Source: a virus
Taxonomy: Duplodnaviria > Heunggongvirae > Uroviricota > Caudoviricetes
IMG/VR virus record: IMGVR_UViG_2778261164_000004
Location: 1-41,360 of that record
Direction: 5' to 3' (one strand)
DNA length: 41,360 bases
This document shows, piece after piece, positions 35,904-41,360 of the stretch (the first letter of the stretch is position 1; every line of letters begins with the position of its first letter). The position numbers and the translations under genes were made by a program. Below the pieces are notes generated by a model that searched no databases, was not told where the DNA came from, and saw nothing but the letters and a program-made list of their open reading frames with translations.

Positions 35904-38060
35904 ATGACAGACATTACAGCCAATGTTGTGGTAAGCATGCCTTCGCAACTCTTCACTATGGCGCGTTCTTTTAAAGCCGTAGCTAATGGTAAAATTTATA
36001 TCGGAATAATTGACACTGACCCGGTAAATCCAGAAAACCAGATTCAGGTTTATATAGAGAACGAAGACGGTTCTCACGTTCCTGTTTCGCAACCAATCAT
36101 CATTAATGCTGCTGGATATCCGGTATATAACGGACAGATTGCCAAGTTTGTAACTGTGCAAGGTCATTCTATGTCTGTGTACGATGCATATGGATCACAG
36201 CAGTTCTATTTCCCTAATGTGCTGAAGTACGACCCTGATCAATTTGAGATTAGGCTTTCTAATCAAGACGGCGCTGGTCTTGTTGGGATTATGCCATATG
36301 GCACGGTACAGGATGCCATCAAATGGGTTGTCCCCGAGGTATTCCCCGGAAGTAATGCGTCAGAAAAATTACAGGCAGCTGTAAATTATGCGGTTGCAAA
36401 CAAAACGAGAGTTGTAGCATCAGGTGTGTACGATGTAACAGCCCCCGTCACCATCCCAGGAGACATCATTATCGATGCTTCTACTGGAGAATTTACCTTC
36501 AATGGCATTGATTATATTTTCCATCCGCTTGGCGCAAAATCAGTAGAGATTATCGGCGGTAAGTTCACCGCAAATGCATACCACACCCAGCGTCCTCAGG
36601 TAATTTTCAATGATTACCCTGATGGGCTGGAGAATTTACCAACGCGCGTGGTGATAAAAGATATGCAATGCTTTAACTGCGGTGTTGGCTACATCATGGT
36701 TAACTGTCAGGACCCAACCAGCGTACATATCTCAGTTGATAATAACTACTGCAAGACTGATGACAACACAGATCAGTATATCTCTGATGCAGGAATGTCA
36801 GGTGAACAGGGTGAGGTATATCCATATCTGATGATTCTTGGCAACACGACTGCATCCGTCGACATTGGAACTCCTCGCAAGTCAATGTTCCACATAACGA
36901 ATAACACCTTTGATGTTTTTATGCAGACCGGTCCGAATGCAGATATTATAAAAATCGGAGGATCGACGATAGGAGGCGCTTTCTCTGGAAATTTACTTAT
37001 GAACAGGAATGCTGAGTCTGCGTGTGAGATGGATACATTTACTGGGGGGCTTGAAATAAACATAACTTCCAACAGATTTGTCAATACAGCTAATAAAATG
37101 ATGTCATTGCAATTTGATGGCAGTACTAGAGTCGGTCTTGGTGGGCGTTCAGTTATTTCTAACAATATCTATCATTTTGAGGAAAACCCGCTTAACGATT
37201 TCGCTATATTCCTTAGAACTTCTCTTGTTAGTATTACAGGAAATGTTTTCTACTATAAAGGTGCTACAAATCCTTCAGAACAGAGGATATTTAATTTCAT
37301 CGCTTCACAGGCGTTAAACAACAATAACAACGGTTTTAATGGCACGTGGTGTGCCGGAATTAGTATCAACAGCAATACCATGCAAATGGTTCTTGATCCT
37401 GGTGTTAACAAAGACCTAAGACTCCAATGCATCAACACTACCGATATGTCAGGAGCAGTTATATCTGGCAACTTCATGGCCGGGGGTGTTGGAATGGTGC
37501 TTAATGCAAGACCAGAAAGAAACAGAAACGTATGGACAGGTAACTTCATTACGTCAGGGTTATTTACGGCAGAAGATATCTGGCGAATGAACTCAGCTTT
37601 TGTAGGTTCAGGTAACTATATCGGAAATGGTTATGATAATACTGTTAATGGCGTAGCAATGTTAAGCAAGTCTTTACCTGTGTTATCTGATGGCTCAAAG
37701 GTACGAATTACTCTTGATAAACAGATATTGACTGGTTCTACATCTGATCGCACTCTTTACCTTCTCCACATAAAAGTGACTGGAGGTGTAAAAAATAATT
37801 ATGCTACTTATATCATGTCTTCCGGTGCGCATGACGCAACGGACAGGGCAGATGCAACTGACCTTAAATCACCCATTGATCAGCGGTTAAATCCAGGAGA
37901 CACATCCATAGCAAACCTGCAAAGTTGCTTCAAAGCAGGGTACAACGGGAGTGGGTATATTGTGCTTGAGGCTCTTTCAACATACAGCGCTGCAAATAAT
38001 CCGCCAACAAAACTTGAATATGCAATAGTACCATTATCAACAAACTTCCCAACTCTGTAA
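35904..38060 (+). CDS. Tailspike protein (P22 gp9-type head-binding domain + divergent beta-helix receptor-binding domain)
   Basis: First about 120 aa (MTDITANVVVSMPSQLFTMARSFKAVANGKIYIGIIDTDPVNPENQIQVYIENEDGSHV...) match the P22 tailspike N-terminal domain; remaining about 600 aa are unlike P22 and have beta-helix-like repeats. Confidence 0.85.
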   Translation: MTDITANVVVSMPSQLFTMARSFKAVANGKIYIGIIDTDPVNPENQIQVYIENEDGSHVPVSQPIIINAAGYPVYNGQIAKFVTVQGHSMSVYDAYGSQQFYFPNVLKYDPDQFEIRLSNQDGAGLVGIMPYGTVQDAIKWVVPEVFPGSNASEKLQAAVNYAVANKTRVVASGVYDVTAPVTIPGDIIIDASTGEFTFNGIDYIFHPLGAKSVEIIGGKFTANAYHTQRPQVIFNDYPDGLENLPTRVVIKDMQCFNCGVGYIMVNCQDPTSVHISVDNNYCKTDDNTDQYISDAGMSGEQGEVYPYLMILGNTTASVDIGTPRKSMFHITNNTFDVFMQTGPNADIIKIGGSTIGGAFSGNLLMNRNAESACEMDTFTGGLEINITSNRFVNTANKMMSLQFDGSTRVGLGGRSVISNNIYHFEENPLNDFAIFLRTSLVSITGNVFYYKGATNPSEQRIFNFIASQALNNNNNGFNGTWCAGISINSNTMQMVLDPGVNKDLRLQCINTTDMSGAVISGNFMAGGVGMVLNARPERNRNVWTGNFITSGLFTAEDIWRMNSAFVGSGNYIGNGYDNTVNGVAMLSKSLPVLSDGSKVRITLDKQILTGSTSDRTLYLLHIKVTGGVKNNYATYIMSSGAHDATDRADATDLKSPIDQRLNPGDTSIANLQSCFKAGYNGSGYIVLEALSTYSAANNPPTKLEYAIVPLSTNFPTL

Positions 38061-38062
38061 AT

Positions 38063-38099
38063 TTGTGCGCACTATGAAAAAGTTAAATAGTGCGCACAA
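38063..38099. terminator. 13-bp perfect inverted repeat between convergent tailspike and acyltransferase genes (bidirectional terminator candidate)
   Basis: TTGTGCGCACTAT (38063-38075) and ATAGTGCGCACAA (38087-38099), 11-nt loop, AT-rich flanks. Confidence 0.55.
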
Positions 38100-38108
38100 T
38101 TATTTATA

Positions 38109-40064
38109 TTATATATCGATAATTATATTTCCAAACCCTTCAATTGCCTTTCTTGCTCCATATCTTGATAGATGATACTCATCAGAATACATAACGTCAC
38201 CTTTGTCAGATACTAGGTTACATCTCCCATTCCTACACATGAAATCATAAGGGTTTATAAACTTTATACTTCCGTTATCTGATAGCCATTTGTTTAAATA
38301 ATTATTGCTATCTAACCTATCACCGCTTTCTGTGCTGAAAATACTATCAATGCATTTCTTTTCAACATATGAAGGTCGGCTCACACAAGAAAGACCGCCG
38401 TCAGAGCCTATTGCTGCCGGGTGGTTTCCAATAACAATTACTTTCTGATTTGTGTACTCTTGAATATTGTTAATAACGGAAGCATTGAATTTCATATAAT
38501 CATGGTCTCCGTTGAATTTATACACATTACCATCTTTATCAGATAGCATCTCCATGTACCTAAGCCATGATTGTGCATAAACAAGTGGTATCTTATTATA
38601 TTTAGAGTAATCTATCGCTTTTGTTCCTATCTTCACACCATATACAGAAACCTTCCCTTTTTCTGTAACGTAAACGCTATTTGATAGATATGCCCCATCA
38701 GCGAAGAATGCTGCTGCTGATAGATTTCTCTTTGCAAGAAATTCACTCATGGCTAATGAATACTGTCTTGCATAACTGTCACCCATGAAAACAAATGATG
38801 GCTTTTTGGTTTTATCTCCAAGAACTACCATTTCACCTTGCTTAACCCCAAAGCCTCCGAATAAATATTCTTTAAATCCAGGTTTGAGCATTTCCATGTT
38901 TTCTTTATAATTTTGTATTCTAAATGCAAATCCGTTGTCTTTTATTGAAGATGAATACGAAATCATAACCAATATAGTTAATGATAAAAGCAATACTGAT
39001 TTGTAGCAAAACTCATTTATTTTTATCTTTCTGAATTTATTTTCTATTGCGTTGTACATTAAGAATCCAACAGCCAGCGAAGATAAAATCAATGATGCTT
39101 TCTCGATATCATTTAACTCTCTATATATCCAGTATTTGTAAAACACAATAATAGGCCAGTGAATTAGATAAACTGAATACGATATCAGGCCTATCGTAAC
39201 GCTGACCCTGTTATTCACAGCGAAGCCAGCGTATTTTGCATCATGTGAAAGAATGCAAAGCATGGCACCCAATACGGGAATCATGGCATGCAAACCAGGG
39301 AACTGAGTTGATGATGAGTAAAGCAACGCAGATGATACTATCATCGCAAGTCCCGCAGCCATCATAGACTCCTTCATTAGTTCAGATGGTTTTATCCATC
39401 GAGAAATGAAGAATGCGAGTCCGCCGAAAGACAACTCAAAAACCCTGAACGGCATCCAGTAGTATGCTTCAGTTTGCATGTTTATAGTTGCCCACTGAGA
39501 GGATGCCAGAGAAGCAATACTAATAATAACCAGAACCCATGGCACAAGGCTCTTTTTTACTAAATATACTGCTCCGATAATCAGAGGCCATACAAGATAG
39601 AACTGCTGTTCTACACCAAGAGACCATGTGTGCAACAATGGATTTATTTCTGATGATGTATCGAAATAACCAACGCTTTGTGCAAAAAATATATTTGATG
39701 CTGAATACAACGCATATATTGCTGATTTAGATACACTAACAAAATCAGAAGGTGAGTACAGAATAAAGCACCCAGCAAAAACGGCGATCAGCGTTGCTAT
39801 AAGAGCAGGGTACAGTCTTGCTATCCTGGCGAACATGAAATTAATGTAACTGAAAGTTCCATTCTCAGTTTGATTGAAAATTATTCCAGTTATCAGATAA
39901 CCAGAAATAACAAAAAATACATCAACGCCAACAAACCCTCCGGGAACACTGCTGAACCCTACATGAAATATAAGAACTAAAATGACGGCAACAGCACGGA
40001 GTCCATCAACTCCTGGCTGGTAATTTTTAGACAATGTTTTGTCAGTCTTCAAAAGAAAGCTCAT
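38109..40064 (-). CDS. O-antigen acyltransferase, acyltransferase-3 membrane domain fused to SGNH domain (OafA/Oac-like, 651 aa)
   Basis: N-terminal AT3 motifs (DGLRAVAVILVLIFHV, FFVISGYLIT), about 10 TM segments, C-terminal GDS(Y) SGNH motif; markedly AT-rich compared with neighbours; sits between tailspike and integrase. Confidence 0.8.
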   Translation of the reverse strand: MSFLLKTDKTLSKNYQPGVDGLRAVAVILVLIFHVGFSSVPGGFVGVDVFFVISGYLITGIIFNQTENGTFSYINFMFARIARLYPALIATLIAVFAGCFILYSPSDFVSVSKSAIYALYSASNIFFAQSVGYFDTSSEINPLLHTWSLGVEQQFYLVWPLIIGAVYLVKKSLVPWVLVIISIASLASSQWATINMQTEAYYWMPFRVFELSFGGLAFFISRWIKPSELMKESMMAAGLAMIVSSALLYSSSTQFPGLHAMIPVLGAMLCILSHDAKYAGFAVNNRVSVTIGLISYSVYLIHWPIIVFYKYWIYRELNDIEKASLILSSLAVGFLMYNAIENKFRKIKINEFCYKSVLLLSLTILVMISYSSSIKDNGFAFRIQNYKENMEMLKPGFKEYLFGGFGVKQGEMVVLGDKTKKPSFVFMGDSYARQYSLAMSEFLAKRNLSAAAFFADGAYLSNSVYVTEKGKVSVYGVKIGTKAIDYSKYNKIPLVYAQSWLRYMEMLSDKDGNVYKFNGDHDYMKFNASVINNIQEYTNQKVIVIGNHPAAIGSDGGLSCVSRPSYVEKKCIDSIFSTESGDRLDSNNYLNKWLSDNGSIKFINPYDFMCRNGRCNLVSDKGDVMYSDEYHLSRYGARKAIEGFGNIIIDI

Positions 40065-40202
40065 TATTCATCCGTATTCATTCTTTTTTGCTGTGCTGAT
40101 ATTAGCACTGACATCGCCACCGATCGACTTTTGAAGTGGTAACTAGGCGAAAACGGGATACACAAAGCTTTGCATTGGTTTGCAAGGCTTTGTGCTGTTT
40201 TT

Positions 40203-41360
40203 CTACGACACCCTCTCATCGAGATAATCCGCCCACCACTGCATCATCTCCCTGCGCTTATCGAGATACTGAGCATGGTTGTAAATCCCACGCACAGATC
40301 CGCCGTTGGCATGTGCCAGTTGCACTTCAATAGCGTCAGCAGGCCATTCGTGCTCGTTCATAATCGTGCTGAATTCATGCCTGAATCCGTGACCGCTTTC
40401 CAGACCCTCATAGCCAATTTGTTTGATCACAAGCAATACCGCGTTCTCGCAGATTGGCTTCTTCTTATCGTTGCGACCGGCAAAAACAAACTCTGATACT
40501 GGTTTGGTGATTGAGCTTAGTGTAGTGAGAAGTTCAACCACCTGGTCTGACATCGGGACAACATGAATTTTGCGTCCCTTCATCACACTGGCGTCGATGG
40601 TGATAATCCTGTTTTCAAAATCGACGTTCTTCCATAGCATGGAACGAAGCTCTTTCGTTCTTAGGGCTGTGTAGCGTAAAACTTTGGTCGCAATGAGCGA
40701 TACGATACTTCCTGAAAATGTTGCCAGTGCTTTGTTGAATGCCGGGATCTGGTCTGCTGGAAGAAACGGGAAGTTCTTCTTGCGGTATCCTTTCATGGCG
40801 TCTGCAAGGTCAGGTGCCGGGTTATATTTAGCCCTTCCGGTGACAATAGCGTAACGGAAAACCTCGCCGCATCTTCTGCGGGCTTTGTTGGCTCGCTCCA
40901 TTGCACCGCGATCTTCAAATCTGCGGATTACTTCCAGCAGTTGCATCGGCTCAATATCCTGAATCTCAAGACCGCCGATGATGGGTAAAATGTCGTCATC
41001 AAACATTTTGGCAAGTTCAGTTGCATAGCCTACTGACCAGACTTGCTTCTTGTGCTCGTACCATTCCTTGTAAATCGCACTAAATGAATTGTTGTTAGAC
41101 GAAGCCTTTTTCGCCTTTACCGGATCGATGCCAACCGAGATGTCTTTCCTCGCGGTCCATGCTTTATCCCTTGCTTCCTGCAAAGTCATAAGCGGATATT
41201 TTCCGACGGTCAGGATTTTCTCCTTACCGTCAATCTTGTAGCGAAGCTGCCATACCTTTTTCCCGGATACAGGGACATAAAGGTACAGGCCATTACCATC
41301 GAGAAGGCGGTATGGTTTTTCTTTCGGCTTAGCTGCTTCAATCTGCTTAACGGTGAGCAT
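40203..41360 (-). CDS. intS: Tyrosine integrase, IntS type (385 aa), start codon at window end
   Basis: MLTVKQIEAAKPKEKPYRLLDGNGLYLYVPVSGKKVWQLRYKIDGKEK... and C-terminal catalytic motifs (HGFRH, Y near the C-terminus) match recalled E. coli IntS of CPS-53/KplE1. Confidence 0.9.
   Translation of the reverse strand: MLTVKQIEAAKPKEKPYRLLDGNGLYLYVPVSGKKVWQLRYKIDGKEKILTVGKYPLMTLQEARDKAWTARKDISVGIDPVKAKKASSNNNSFSAIYKEWYEHKKQVWSVGYATELAKMFDDDILPIIGGLEIQDIEPMQLLEVIRRFEDRGAMERANKARRRCGEVFRYAIVTGRAKYNPAPDLADAMKGYRKKNFPFLPADQIPAFNKALATFSGSIVSLIATKVLRYTALRTKELRSMLWKNVDFENRIITIDASVMKGRKIHVVPMSDQVVELLTTLSSITKPVSEFVFAGRNDKKKPICENAVLLVIKQIGYEGLESGHGFRHEFSTIMNEHEWPADAIEVQLAHANGGSVRGIYNHAQYLDKRREMMQWWADYLDERVS

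What the first reader, a model, noticed from the sequence alone, without database searches (positions are those of the whole stretch)
35904..38060. Tailspike with P22-type head-binding domain but a different receptor-binding module
The first about 120 residues match the P22 gp9 head-binding domain, so the particle is a P22-like podovirus. The remaining about 600 residues are not P22-like and carry repetitive beta-helix-like segments. Tailspike receptor domains are exchanged modularly and define O-antigen specificity; combined with the adjacent acyltransferase this predicts a defined O-serotype target and enzymatic activity.
Basis: partly seen in the sequence, partly recalled or inferred. Interest (0 to 1): 0.45.

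Follow-up and report, generated by a model that had tools for sequence, protein, structure and literature searches.

The report
P22-type tailspike targeting O178-type O-antigen
This is an ordinary but previously uncharacterised tailspike of a P22-like E. coli prophage. Its receptor module probably recognises the O153/O178-type O-antigen, and it is exchanged between unrelated phages together with the neighbouring O-antigen acetyltransferase gene.

Summary
ORF 35904..38060 (+) encodes 718 aa. Residues 1-113 are a full-length P22 head-binding domain (Pfam E 6e-66; 91% identical to Sf6 gp14 and 76% to P22 gp9 in the fold alignments). Residues 143-718 match no solved protein by sequence.

The module belongs to a very small family: 26 cluster representatives among 1.84 billion. 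Its closest named relative is the uncharacterised gp01 of siphophage swi2 (89% aa).

All 6 complete E. coli genomes that carry the module are among the 16 of 5426 with an O153/O178-family wzy (P ~1e-13 to 2e-16). That O-antigen is therefore the predicted receptor.

The distal tailspike part and the downstream acyltransferase co-vary as one cassette. The same cassette also sits in a phiV10-like prophage. Some relatives carry a fused GDSL esterase.

The O153-specific tailspike TSP3 of phage AV101, which has been characterised, is unrelated.

Verdict: a new member of a known kind. Enzymatic activity remains inferred. Interest is modest.

The parts
35822..35839 (+). Terminator-like hairpin plus T-run downstream of ant. 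It sits where HK620 annotates its tANT terminator, just upstream of the tailspike gene.
   Evidence: 7-bp stem, 5 G-C pairs, followed by TTTTTTT. Sequence seen. HK620 annotation of tANT at the same relative position.
35904..38060 (+). Tailspike gene, 718 aa plus stop codon.
35904..36242 (+). Residues 1-113: P22-type head-binding (particle-attachment) domain.
   Evidence: PF09008 full length, E 5.9e-66. Sf6 gp14 E 1.9e-64 and P22 gp9 E 1.5e-52. 88-92% nt identity to many Lederbergvirus tailspike 5' ends.
36243..36293 (+). Residues 114-130: linker and recombination junction after the YDPDQF motif. Homology to other anchor types begins here.
   Evidence: swi2 homology starts at about 36264. Homology to the phiV10-like prophage starts at about 36290-36340.
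36294..37628 (+). Residues ~131-575: N-cap helix and right-handed parallel beta-helix, the predicted O-antigen binding and cleaving body.
36882..37241 (+). Residues 327-446: hypervariable patch of the beta-helix. It contains the family-invariant residues D337, D347, K350, E375, D377, K398 and D432, so it is the candidate substrate groove and active site.
   Evidence: Window/M9 allele versus E62/P0003/swi2 allele: 78% aa identity here against 99-100% in the flanks. Invariant columns. Strand register.
37629..38057 (+). Residues ~576-718: C-terminal beta-sandwich domain, presumed to serve trimerisation or stability.
   Evidence: AF2 strands 587-710 at pLDDT about 70-88. Function is inferred by analogy with other tailspikes.
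36744..40200 (.). Exchangeable cassette: the distal two-thirds of the tailspike, the terminator and the acyltransferase. It is replaced as a unit in the variant-B prophages. G+C is lower here (0.41 and 0.37, against 0.47 for the rest of the window).
   Evidence: Against the O178:H19 prophage, identity drops from 97-100% to 50-72% at about 36744 and recovers at about 40224. Tailspike variant and acyltransferase type co-vary. G+C.
38063..38099 (.). Perfect 13-bp inverted repeat (TTGTGCGCACTAT / ATAGTGCGCACAA, 11-nt loop) between the convergent tailspike and acyltransferase genes. Probably a bidirectional terminator.
   Evidence: Read directly from the sequence. Conserved at 100% in the phiV10-like cassette copy.
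38109..40064 (-). 651-aa AT3-SGNH acyltransferase, the predicted O-antigen O-acetylase (seroconversion and superinfection exclusion).
   Evidence: PF01757 E 9e-32 plus PF19040 E 4e-25. phrog_6705 'O-antigen acetylase' E 2e-142. Motifs R23-x10-H34, FFVISGY at 50-56, GDS at 428 and DEYH at 628. Present only in the 3 of 5426 genomes that carry the variant-A tailspike.
40203..41360 (-). Tyrosine integrase (IntS-like). It marks the end of the prophage, next to the argW/yfdC attachment site in sister prophages.

Best explanation
The gene encodes the tailspike of a Sf6/HK620-like (P22-like, Lederbergvirus) temperate podovirus. Residues 1-113 dock the spike onto the tail hub. After a short linker, residues ~131-718 form a beta-helix receptor module with a C-terminal beta-sandwich. 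I infer that this module binds the E. coli O-antigen made by the O153/O178-family gene cluster, and most probably cleaves it as an endoglycosidase, so the virion can work its way down to the outer membrane. Candidate catalytic carboxylates are E375 and D377, with D337, D347 and D432, which lie on successive rungs of one sheet of the helix. The convergent downstream AT3-SGNH acyltransferase is inferred to O-acetylate that same O-antigen in the lysogen, so that it stops being a good substrate for this spike (seroconversion and superinfection exclusion). The distal tailspike part and the acyltransferase are inherited and exchanged as one cassette. That cassette has been grafted onto at least three anchor types: P22 head-binding, the phiV10/epsilon15-like anchor, and the PF18668 anchor of siphophage swi2. 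Shown here: domain content, fold class, mosaic boundaries, cassette linkage and the association with host O-genotype. Inferred: trimer formation, glycosidase activity, the catalytic residues, the acetylation target and its protective effect.
For: Anchor domain. P22-like virion genes. Beta-helix fold. Host association: the module occurs in 6 of 5426 complete genomes, and all 6 are among the 16 genomes with an O153/O178-family wzy. Hypergeometric P is 2e-16, or 8e-14 with the near-clones M6 and M9 counted once. The carriers come from mouse, rat (China) and humans (USA, Malawi, Korea). Their prophages sit at two different integration sites, torT and argW, so acquisition was not a single clonal event. 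One carrier is a typed O178:H19 strain. Cassette: variant A always occurs with the 651-aa AT3-SGNH enzyme and variant B always with a 335-aa AT3 enzyme of 25% identity. The same module, terminator and acyltransferase (98% aa) sit in a phiV10-like prophage. Conserved acidic residues lie inside a diversifying patch. The acyltransferase carries its catalytic motifs and matches the phage O-antigen acetylase family. The principle that a single-tailspike prophage targets its host's O-antigen, and that conversion genes follow the tailspike, is stated for Lederberg- and Uetakeviruses in PMC10408124.
Confidence: 0.7

Rival explanations
1. The module binds the O153/O178 O-antigen but is a non-hydrolytic adhesin, or it cleaves by a chemistry other than glycoside hydrolysis, such as a lyase or epimerase-like mechanism.
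Against: All those matches are at 8-17% identity and reflect the shared beta-helix scaffold. Hydrolase tailspikes (Det7, HK620, CBA120) score nearly as high. Lyases need a uronic acid. PMC7685785 lists D-Ribf, one GlcNAc and one GalNAc in the O178 unit and, from memory of Ali et al. 2005, the other residues are galactose, so no uronic acid is expected. Invariant Asp and Glu residues on consecutive rungs are typical of tailspike endoglycosidases.
Confidence: 0.15
2. The receptor is not the O-antigen but another surface structure. The link to O153/O178 genomes then reflects shared ancestry or ecology of the host strains.
For: The sample is small: 6 genomes, two of them near-identical. PMC10408124 describes some tailspike subtypes found across several serogroups.
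Against: The carriers come from different hosts and continents, and their prophages sit at different loci. P is 8e-14 even with M6 and M9 merged. The module is tightly linked to O-antigen-modifying acyltransferases in two unrelated phage genera, and some relatives have a fused esterase. Both features make sense only for an acetylatable glycan receptor.
Confidence: 0.08
3. The tailspike is a decaying prophage relic with no current function, and only the acyltransferase is under selection.
For: In strain BKQWHE the prophage is reduced to Arc, the tailspike, the acyltransferase and the integrase. In M9 and M6 the integrase is gone.
Against: The ORF is intact at 718 aa in the window and in clusters with 61, 12, 5 and 47 member sequences. 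The window carries a complete P22-like gene set. A virulent phage, swi2, uses the same module. Many residues are invariant down to 40% identity.
Confidence: 0.05

Closest known systems
Sf6 gp14, HK620 gp9 and P22 gp9 tailspikes (Lederbergvirus)
   Same: They share the N-terminal head-binding domain (91% identity to Sf6 and 76% to P22 in the Foldseek alignments; PF09008). They share the gene position after gp16 and the immI region and before the conversion gene and int. The overall plan is the same: anchor, linker, beta-helix and C-terminal domain.
   Different: There is no detectable sequence similarity beyond about residue 142-168. The predicted receptor is different: the O153/O178-type O-antigen rather than Salmonella O:4/O:9, S. 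flexneri Y or E. coli O18A1.
Escherichia siphophage vB_EcoS_swi2 gp01 (YP_010054109, Swiduovirus)
   Same: It shares the receptor module: 89% aa identity over residues 114-718 and 86% nt identity.
   Different: The N-terminal anchor differs (PF18668 type in the 730-aa relatives). The phage is a virulent siphovirus with no adjacent acyltransferase. Its patch at residues 327-446 is the E62-type allele. The protein is uncharacterised and the host serotype is not reported.
phiV10/epsilon15-like (Uetakevirus) prophage tailspike P0003 with its downstream acyltransferase
   Same: The module is 93% identical. The terminator is identical, and the 651-aa AT3-SGNH acyltransferase is 98% identical, in the same convergent arrangement. 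phiV10 is known, from memory, to carry an O-acetyltransferase behind its tailspike.
   Different: It has a 214-residue phiV10-type anchor and a different virion gene set. The cassette is followed by lysis genes rather than an integrase.
OafA/OafB-type AT3-SGNH O-antigen acetyltransferases and the phage O-antigen acetylases (BTP1 GtrC, Sf6 Oac)
   Same: The neighbouring gene has the AT3 and SGNH domains and their signature motifs. It sits next to the tailspike and int as in other P22-like phages.
   Different: It is at most 31% identical to any phage homologue in the collection, and no solved relative is found by sequence. Sf6 Oac and the variant-B enzyme are AT3-only proteins of about 335 aa.
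Agtrevirus AV101 TSP3 (experimentally O153-specific; PMC10791037)
   Same: It is a beta-helix tailspike said to target 'O153'.
   Different: It is not homologous: BLASTP E 0.1 and no tblastn hit. Its prophage homologues lie in genomes without the O153/O178 wzy, so it probably addresses the other gene cluster called O153 (PMC4732683).

Membership tests
P22-like (Lederbergvirus) tailspike | N-terminal head-binding domain (PF09008) | tested here: met
   E 5.9e-66 with full profile coverage. Sf6 and P22 structures matched over residues 1-142.
P22-like (Lederbergvirus) tailspike | Encoded at the end of a P22-like virion gene block, after gp16 and immI and before the conversion gene and int | tested here: met
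   Mnt, Arc and Ant lie upstream.
P22-like (Lederbergvirus) tailspike | Right-handed parallel beta-helix receptor domain | tested here: met
P22-like (Lederbergvirus) tailspike | Homotrimer | not tested
   Only a monomer was modelled.
P22-like (Lederbergvirus) tailspike | Receptor-destroying endoglycosidase activity on O-antigen | not testable with these tools
   Inferred from the fold, the invariant acidic residues and the host O-genotype association.
P22 gp9 endorhamnosidase receptor-domain sequence family | Sequence homology of the beta-helix domain to P22 gp9 | tested here: not met
   The only alignment beyond residue 142 scores -1.2 bits.
This module family (phrog_29018; swi2 gp01-like) | Full-length sequence homology of residues ~115-718 | tested here: met
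   phrog_29018 E 5e-291. 33 and 26 relatives found. swi2 at 89% identity.
AT3-SGNH O-antigen acetyltransferase (neighbour gene) | AT3 domain with the R-x10-H and FFxISG motifs, fused to an SGNH domain with GDS and DxxH | tested here: met
   The motif definitions come from the OafA/OafB literature and are recalled from memory.
AT3-SGNH O-antigen acetyltransferase (neighbour gene) | Acetylates the O-antigen and thereby blocks the cognate tailspike | not testable with these tools
   Supported only by linkage and family annotation.
Polysaccharide lyase (PL6 or K5-lyase-like) | Uronic-acid substrate and beta-elimination machinery | tested here: inconclusive
   Fold similarity is generic. The published sugars of O153/O178 include no uronic acid in the parts quoted, and the full repeat unit is known to me only from memory.
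AV101 TSP3-type O153 tailspike | Sequence homology of the receptor domain | tested here: not met

The most novel reading that the evidence does not exclude
The tailspike groove and the cognate acetyltransferase co-evolve as one mobile 'attack plus cover-your-tracks' cassette. Alternative cassettes occur on one and the same O153/O178 gene cluster: variant A with AT3-SGNH, variant B with a short AT3, and variant C with a fused GDSL esterase plus a 64%-identical AT3-SGNH. These cassettes may create the serological sub-types, possibly even the O153/O178 split. The esterase-armed spikes could be the counter-move that strips the protective acetyl groups.
Probability: 0.15. Interest if true: 0.55.

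Novelty: new member of a known kind. Interest (0 to 1): 0.32.

Why it matters
The result gives a concrete, testable receptor prediction for an uncharacterised tailspike module: the O178-type (O153/O178 genotype) O-antigen, a serogroup that includes Shiga-toxin-producing strains. Such a module could be used for typing or as a depolymerase. The result also gives a clean natural example of a receptor-binding module and its matching receptor-modifying enzyme moving together between phage genera. Mechanistically it fits the established P22, Sf6 and phiV10 paradigm, so it adds a member rather than a principle.

Tried and rejected
1. PDB sequence search for the C-terminal module found nothing beyond residue 142.

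2. Pfam and NCBIfam on the whole protein found only the anchor domain, or nothing.

3. Profile-profile alignment with HK620 gp9, intended to transfer its catalytic residues D339 and E372, aligned only residues 9-168 and said nothing about the helix.

4. I tested whether AV101 TSP3, the experimentally O153-specific spike, is the characterised homologue that would refute novelty. It is unrelated, and its prophage relatives sit in genomes without the O153/O178 wzy.

5. The swi2 paper gives no information on the tail protein or the host serotype.

6. I looked for the O153 and O178 repeat-unit structures in the held literature. Only the composition is quoted. The supplements and the primary papers are not held.

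7. Accession-number literature searches for strains M9, M6 and E62 gave no serotype.

8. Model coordinates are not exposed to scripts, so distances between the candidate catalytic residues could not be measured.

9. The simple promoter scan found fewer sites than expected from shuffles (9 against 15.3), so it is uninformative.

Full report
**Observation**

The window has an intact ORF at 35904..38060 (+) of 718 aa. It starts at ATG with a GGAG 8 nt upstream, and a terminator-like hairpin (35822-35839) lies just before it. Pfam finds one domain, PF09008 Head_binding, covering residues 1-113 end to end at E 5.9e-66. A search of all PDB sequences matches only residues 1-142: Sf6 gp14 at E 1.9e-64 and several P22 gp9 entries at about E 1e-52. 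Nothing matches the remaining 576 residues. The rest of the window is a Sf6/HK620/N7-like Lederbergvirus at 96-97% nt identity over the virion genes. Mnt, Arc and Ant lie upstream. Downstream lie an AT3+SGNH acyltransferase (38109..40064, -) and an integrase (40203..41360, -).

**Fold**

I built an AlphaFold2 model on a 23-sequence alignment. The anchor is modelled poorly because few rows share it. Residues 140-718 are modelled well, with pLDDT blocks mostly 75-94. The model shows a cap helix (152-165), a long run of three-strand rungs (about 168-575), and a C-terminal beta-sandwich (about 587-710).

The module is therefore the usual tailspike depolymerase scaffold, with no close solved relative. 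'Not P22-like' holds for sequence but not for architecture.

**How rare the module is, and who else has it**

The module equals phrog_29018, which has no assigned function. An exhaustive HMMER scan of 1.84 billion cluster representatives finds only 26 at E<=1e-3 and 10 at E<=1e-30. The word-indexed search finds 33 clusters.

Among deposited phages only the siphovirus vB_EcoS_swi2 carries the module. Its gp01 is 89% identical over residues 114-718 but has a different N-terminus. The swi2 paper says nothing about this protein or the host's serotype.

Relatives carry several kinds of N-terminus:
- the P22 head-binding anchor;
- a PF18668 anchor;
- unassigned N-termini in proteins of 800-990 aa.

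Two relatives (P0014, P0019) have a GDSL/SGNH esterase fused to the C-terminus.

**Mosaic anatomy**

Sliding-window DNA identity shows the following:
- Homology to swi2 begins at about 36264, and homology to a phiV10-like prophage begins at about 36290-36340. Both lie just after the YDPDQF motif that ends the anchor.
- Prophages in three other genomes, including a typed O178:H19 strain, are 97-100% identical from the start codon to about 36744 (residue ~285). Identity then falls to 50-72% until about 40224, inside the integrase gene.
- Within otherwise 98-100% identical genes (E62, the phiV10-like copy), a patch at 36882-37241 (residues 327-446) is only 78% identical at protein level.

That patch contains most of the family-invariant charged residues: D337, D347, K350, E375, D377, K398 and D432. 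By the strand register of the model, these sit on the same strand of successive rungs. This pattern is expected of a substrate groove with a fixed catalytic core and a diversifying rim. It is an inference, because I could not access the model coordinates.

**Receptor prediction**

In 5426 complete E. coli genomes the module occurs in six. The full variant A is in M9, M6 (mouse) and E62 (rat). Variant B is in 2012C-4431 (O178:H19), BKQWHE and SY038.

I located the O-antigen cluster of M9. RefSeq annotates its wzx and wzy as 'O153/O178 family', and gnu lies upstream of galF. The M9 wzy sequence is present in only 16 of the 5426 genomes, and all six module carriers are among them. The hypergeometric P is 2e-16, or 8e-14 if the near-identical M6 and M9 are counted once.

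The carriers come from different animals and continents. Their prophages sit at two different loci: beside torT in M9 and M6, and at argW/yfdC elsewhere. This argues against a single clonal event.

A single-tailspike Lederbergvirus prophage generally targets the O-antigen of its host (PMC10408124). The predicted receptor is therefore the O-antigen made by the O153/O178-type cluster. The review PMC7685785 states that O153 and O178 contain D-Ribf and that O178 has one GlcNAc and one GalNAc, with GalNAc as the initial sugar. From memory (Ali et al. 2005), the unit is a linear Ribf-Gal-GlcNAc-Gal-GalNAc pentasaccharide without uronic acid. If so, an endoglycosidase is favoured over a lyase.

**Cassette with the acyltransferase**

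The 651-aa acyltransferase has both the AT3 and SGNH domains. It carries the signature motifs R23-x10-H34, FFVISGY, GDS428 and DEYH628. It matches the phage 'O-antigen acetylase' family phrog_6705 at E 2e-142. It is at most 31% identical to any deposited phage homologue and has no solved relative by sequence.

It occurs in exactly the three complete genomes that carry the variant-A tailspike. The three variant-B prophages instead carry a 335-aa AT3-only enzyme of 25% identity.

The strongest evidence comes from a phiV10/epsilon15-like prophage, identified by 97% identity of its tail genes to phiV10. It carries the module (93% aa), the identical intergenic inverted repeat, and the same acyltransferase (98% aa), in the same convergent layout. 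Homology to the window ends at the acyltransferase start codon.

The GDSL-fused variant is likewise followed by an AT3-SGNH enzyme, at 64% identity.

The cassette has lower G+C than the rest of the prophage: 0.41 and 0.37 against 0.47.

The receptor module and the receptor-modifying enzyme therefore travel together.

**A false lead that matters for novelty**

Agtrevirus AV101 TSP3 has been shown experimentally to act on 'O153' strains (PMC10791037). AV101 is in the searched phage collection. TSP3 is not homologous to this module: BLASTP E 0.1 and no tblastn hit. Its prophage homologues lie in genomes that are not among the 16 with the O153/O178 wzy. This fits the published disagreement over whether the O153 cluster resembles that of O178 (PMC4732683).

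**Mechanism and confidence**

Shown here:
- anchor identity;
- fold class;
- junctions;
- cassette linkage;
- association with host genotype.

Inferred:
- trimeric assembly;
- endoglycosidase activity with E375, D377, D337, D347 and D432 as candidate catalytic residues;
- O-acetylation of the same glycan by the neighbouring enzyme, with exclusion of the cognate spike.

I put 0.7 on the overall picture, higher for the receptor assignment and lower for the specific chemistry. The rivals are a non-hydrolytic or lyase chemistry, a non-O-antigen receptor, and a functionless relic. They are listed with their tests.

**Novelty and score**

The architecture, the gene position and the pairing with a conversion gene are the classical P22, Sf6 and phiV10 arrangement. 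What is new is a member: an uncharacterised, very narrowly distributed receptor module with a nameable predicted target, plus a neat case of module and modifier co-transfer across phage genera. I file it as a new member of a known kind, with interest about 0.3. The most novel reading not excluded is that alternative spike/acetylase/esterase cassettes generate serological sub-types on one O-antigen gene cluster. I give that about 0.15 probability.

Noticed in passing
L014:6001-10458 (phiV10-like prophage) compared with window 36290-40060: The receptor module, the intergenic inverted repeat and the 651-aa acyltransferase are shared at 98-100% nt identity with a Uetakevirus (phiV10/epsilon15-like) prophage. 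That prophage has a different 214-residue anchor. Homology stops at the acyltransferase start codon.
   Followed up: yes
P0014 (959 aa) and P0019 (946 aa; L012:2625-5465): Two relatives of the module have a GDSL/SGNH esterase domain fused to the C-terminus. P0019 sits in a P22-like prophage and is followed by a 650-aa AT3-SGNH acyltransferase 64% identical to the window's. This may be a deacetylating counter-measure.
   Followed up: partly
window 36882-37241 (residues 327-446): A hypervariable patch lies inside otherwise near-identical tailspike genes. The window/M9 allele and the E62/phiV10-like/swi2 allele are 78% identical at protein level. The patch surrounds the invariant residues D337, D347, E375, D377 and D432.
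   Followed up: partly
L018:19335-21281 (AV101 TSP3); genomes: The experimentally 'O153'-specific AV101 TSP3 is unrelated to this module. Its prophage homologues are in genomes lacking the O153/O178 wzy. This suggests that two different gene clusters are both being called O153, as disputed in PMC4732683.
   Followed up: partly
L010 (E. coli BKQWHE) and L002 (M9): In BKQWHE the prophage is reduced to Arc, the tailspike, the acyltransferase and the integrase, next to emrY. In M9 and M6 the prophage lies beside torT and the integrase is missing. The tailspike and acyltransferase end is what survives prophage decay.
   Followed up: no
window 38063-38099: A perfect 13-bp inverted repeat with an 11-nt loop lies between the convergent tailspike and acyltransferase genes. 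It is probably a bidirectional terminator, and it is conserved in the phiV10-like copy.
   Followed up: partly
window 34329-35803: An immI-type region lies upstream of the tailspike: a Mnt-like gene on the minus strand (an 83-aa product in sister loci), Arc (34608-34832) and a P22-type antirepressor Ant (34835-35803). HK620, by contrast, keeps only remnants of mnt and ant.
   Followed up: no
L008:33971-35358 (M9 O-antigen cluster): The O153/O178 cluster contains a HAD-like hydrolase plus a hypothetical protein next to galF. These may be the phosphoribosyl-transferase and phosphatase pair that adds the Ribf residue. The review notes that the cluster has one glycosyltransferase fewer than expected.
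   Followed up: no
P0009 (Citrobacter freundii), P0028/P0030/P0033 (Hafnia paralvei): The module also occurs with a P22 anchor in Citrobacter freundii (87% identity) and, at 40-45% identity, in Hafnia paralvei. This implies related O-antigen targets outside E. coli.
   Followed up: no
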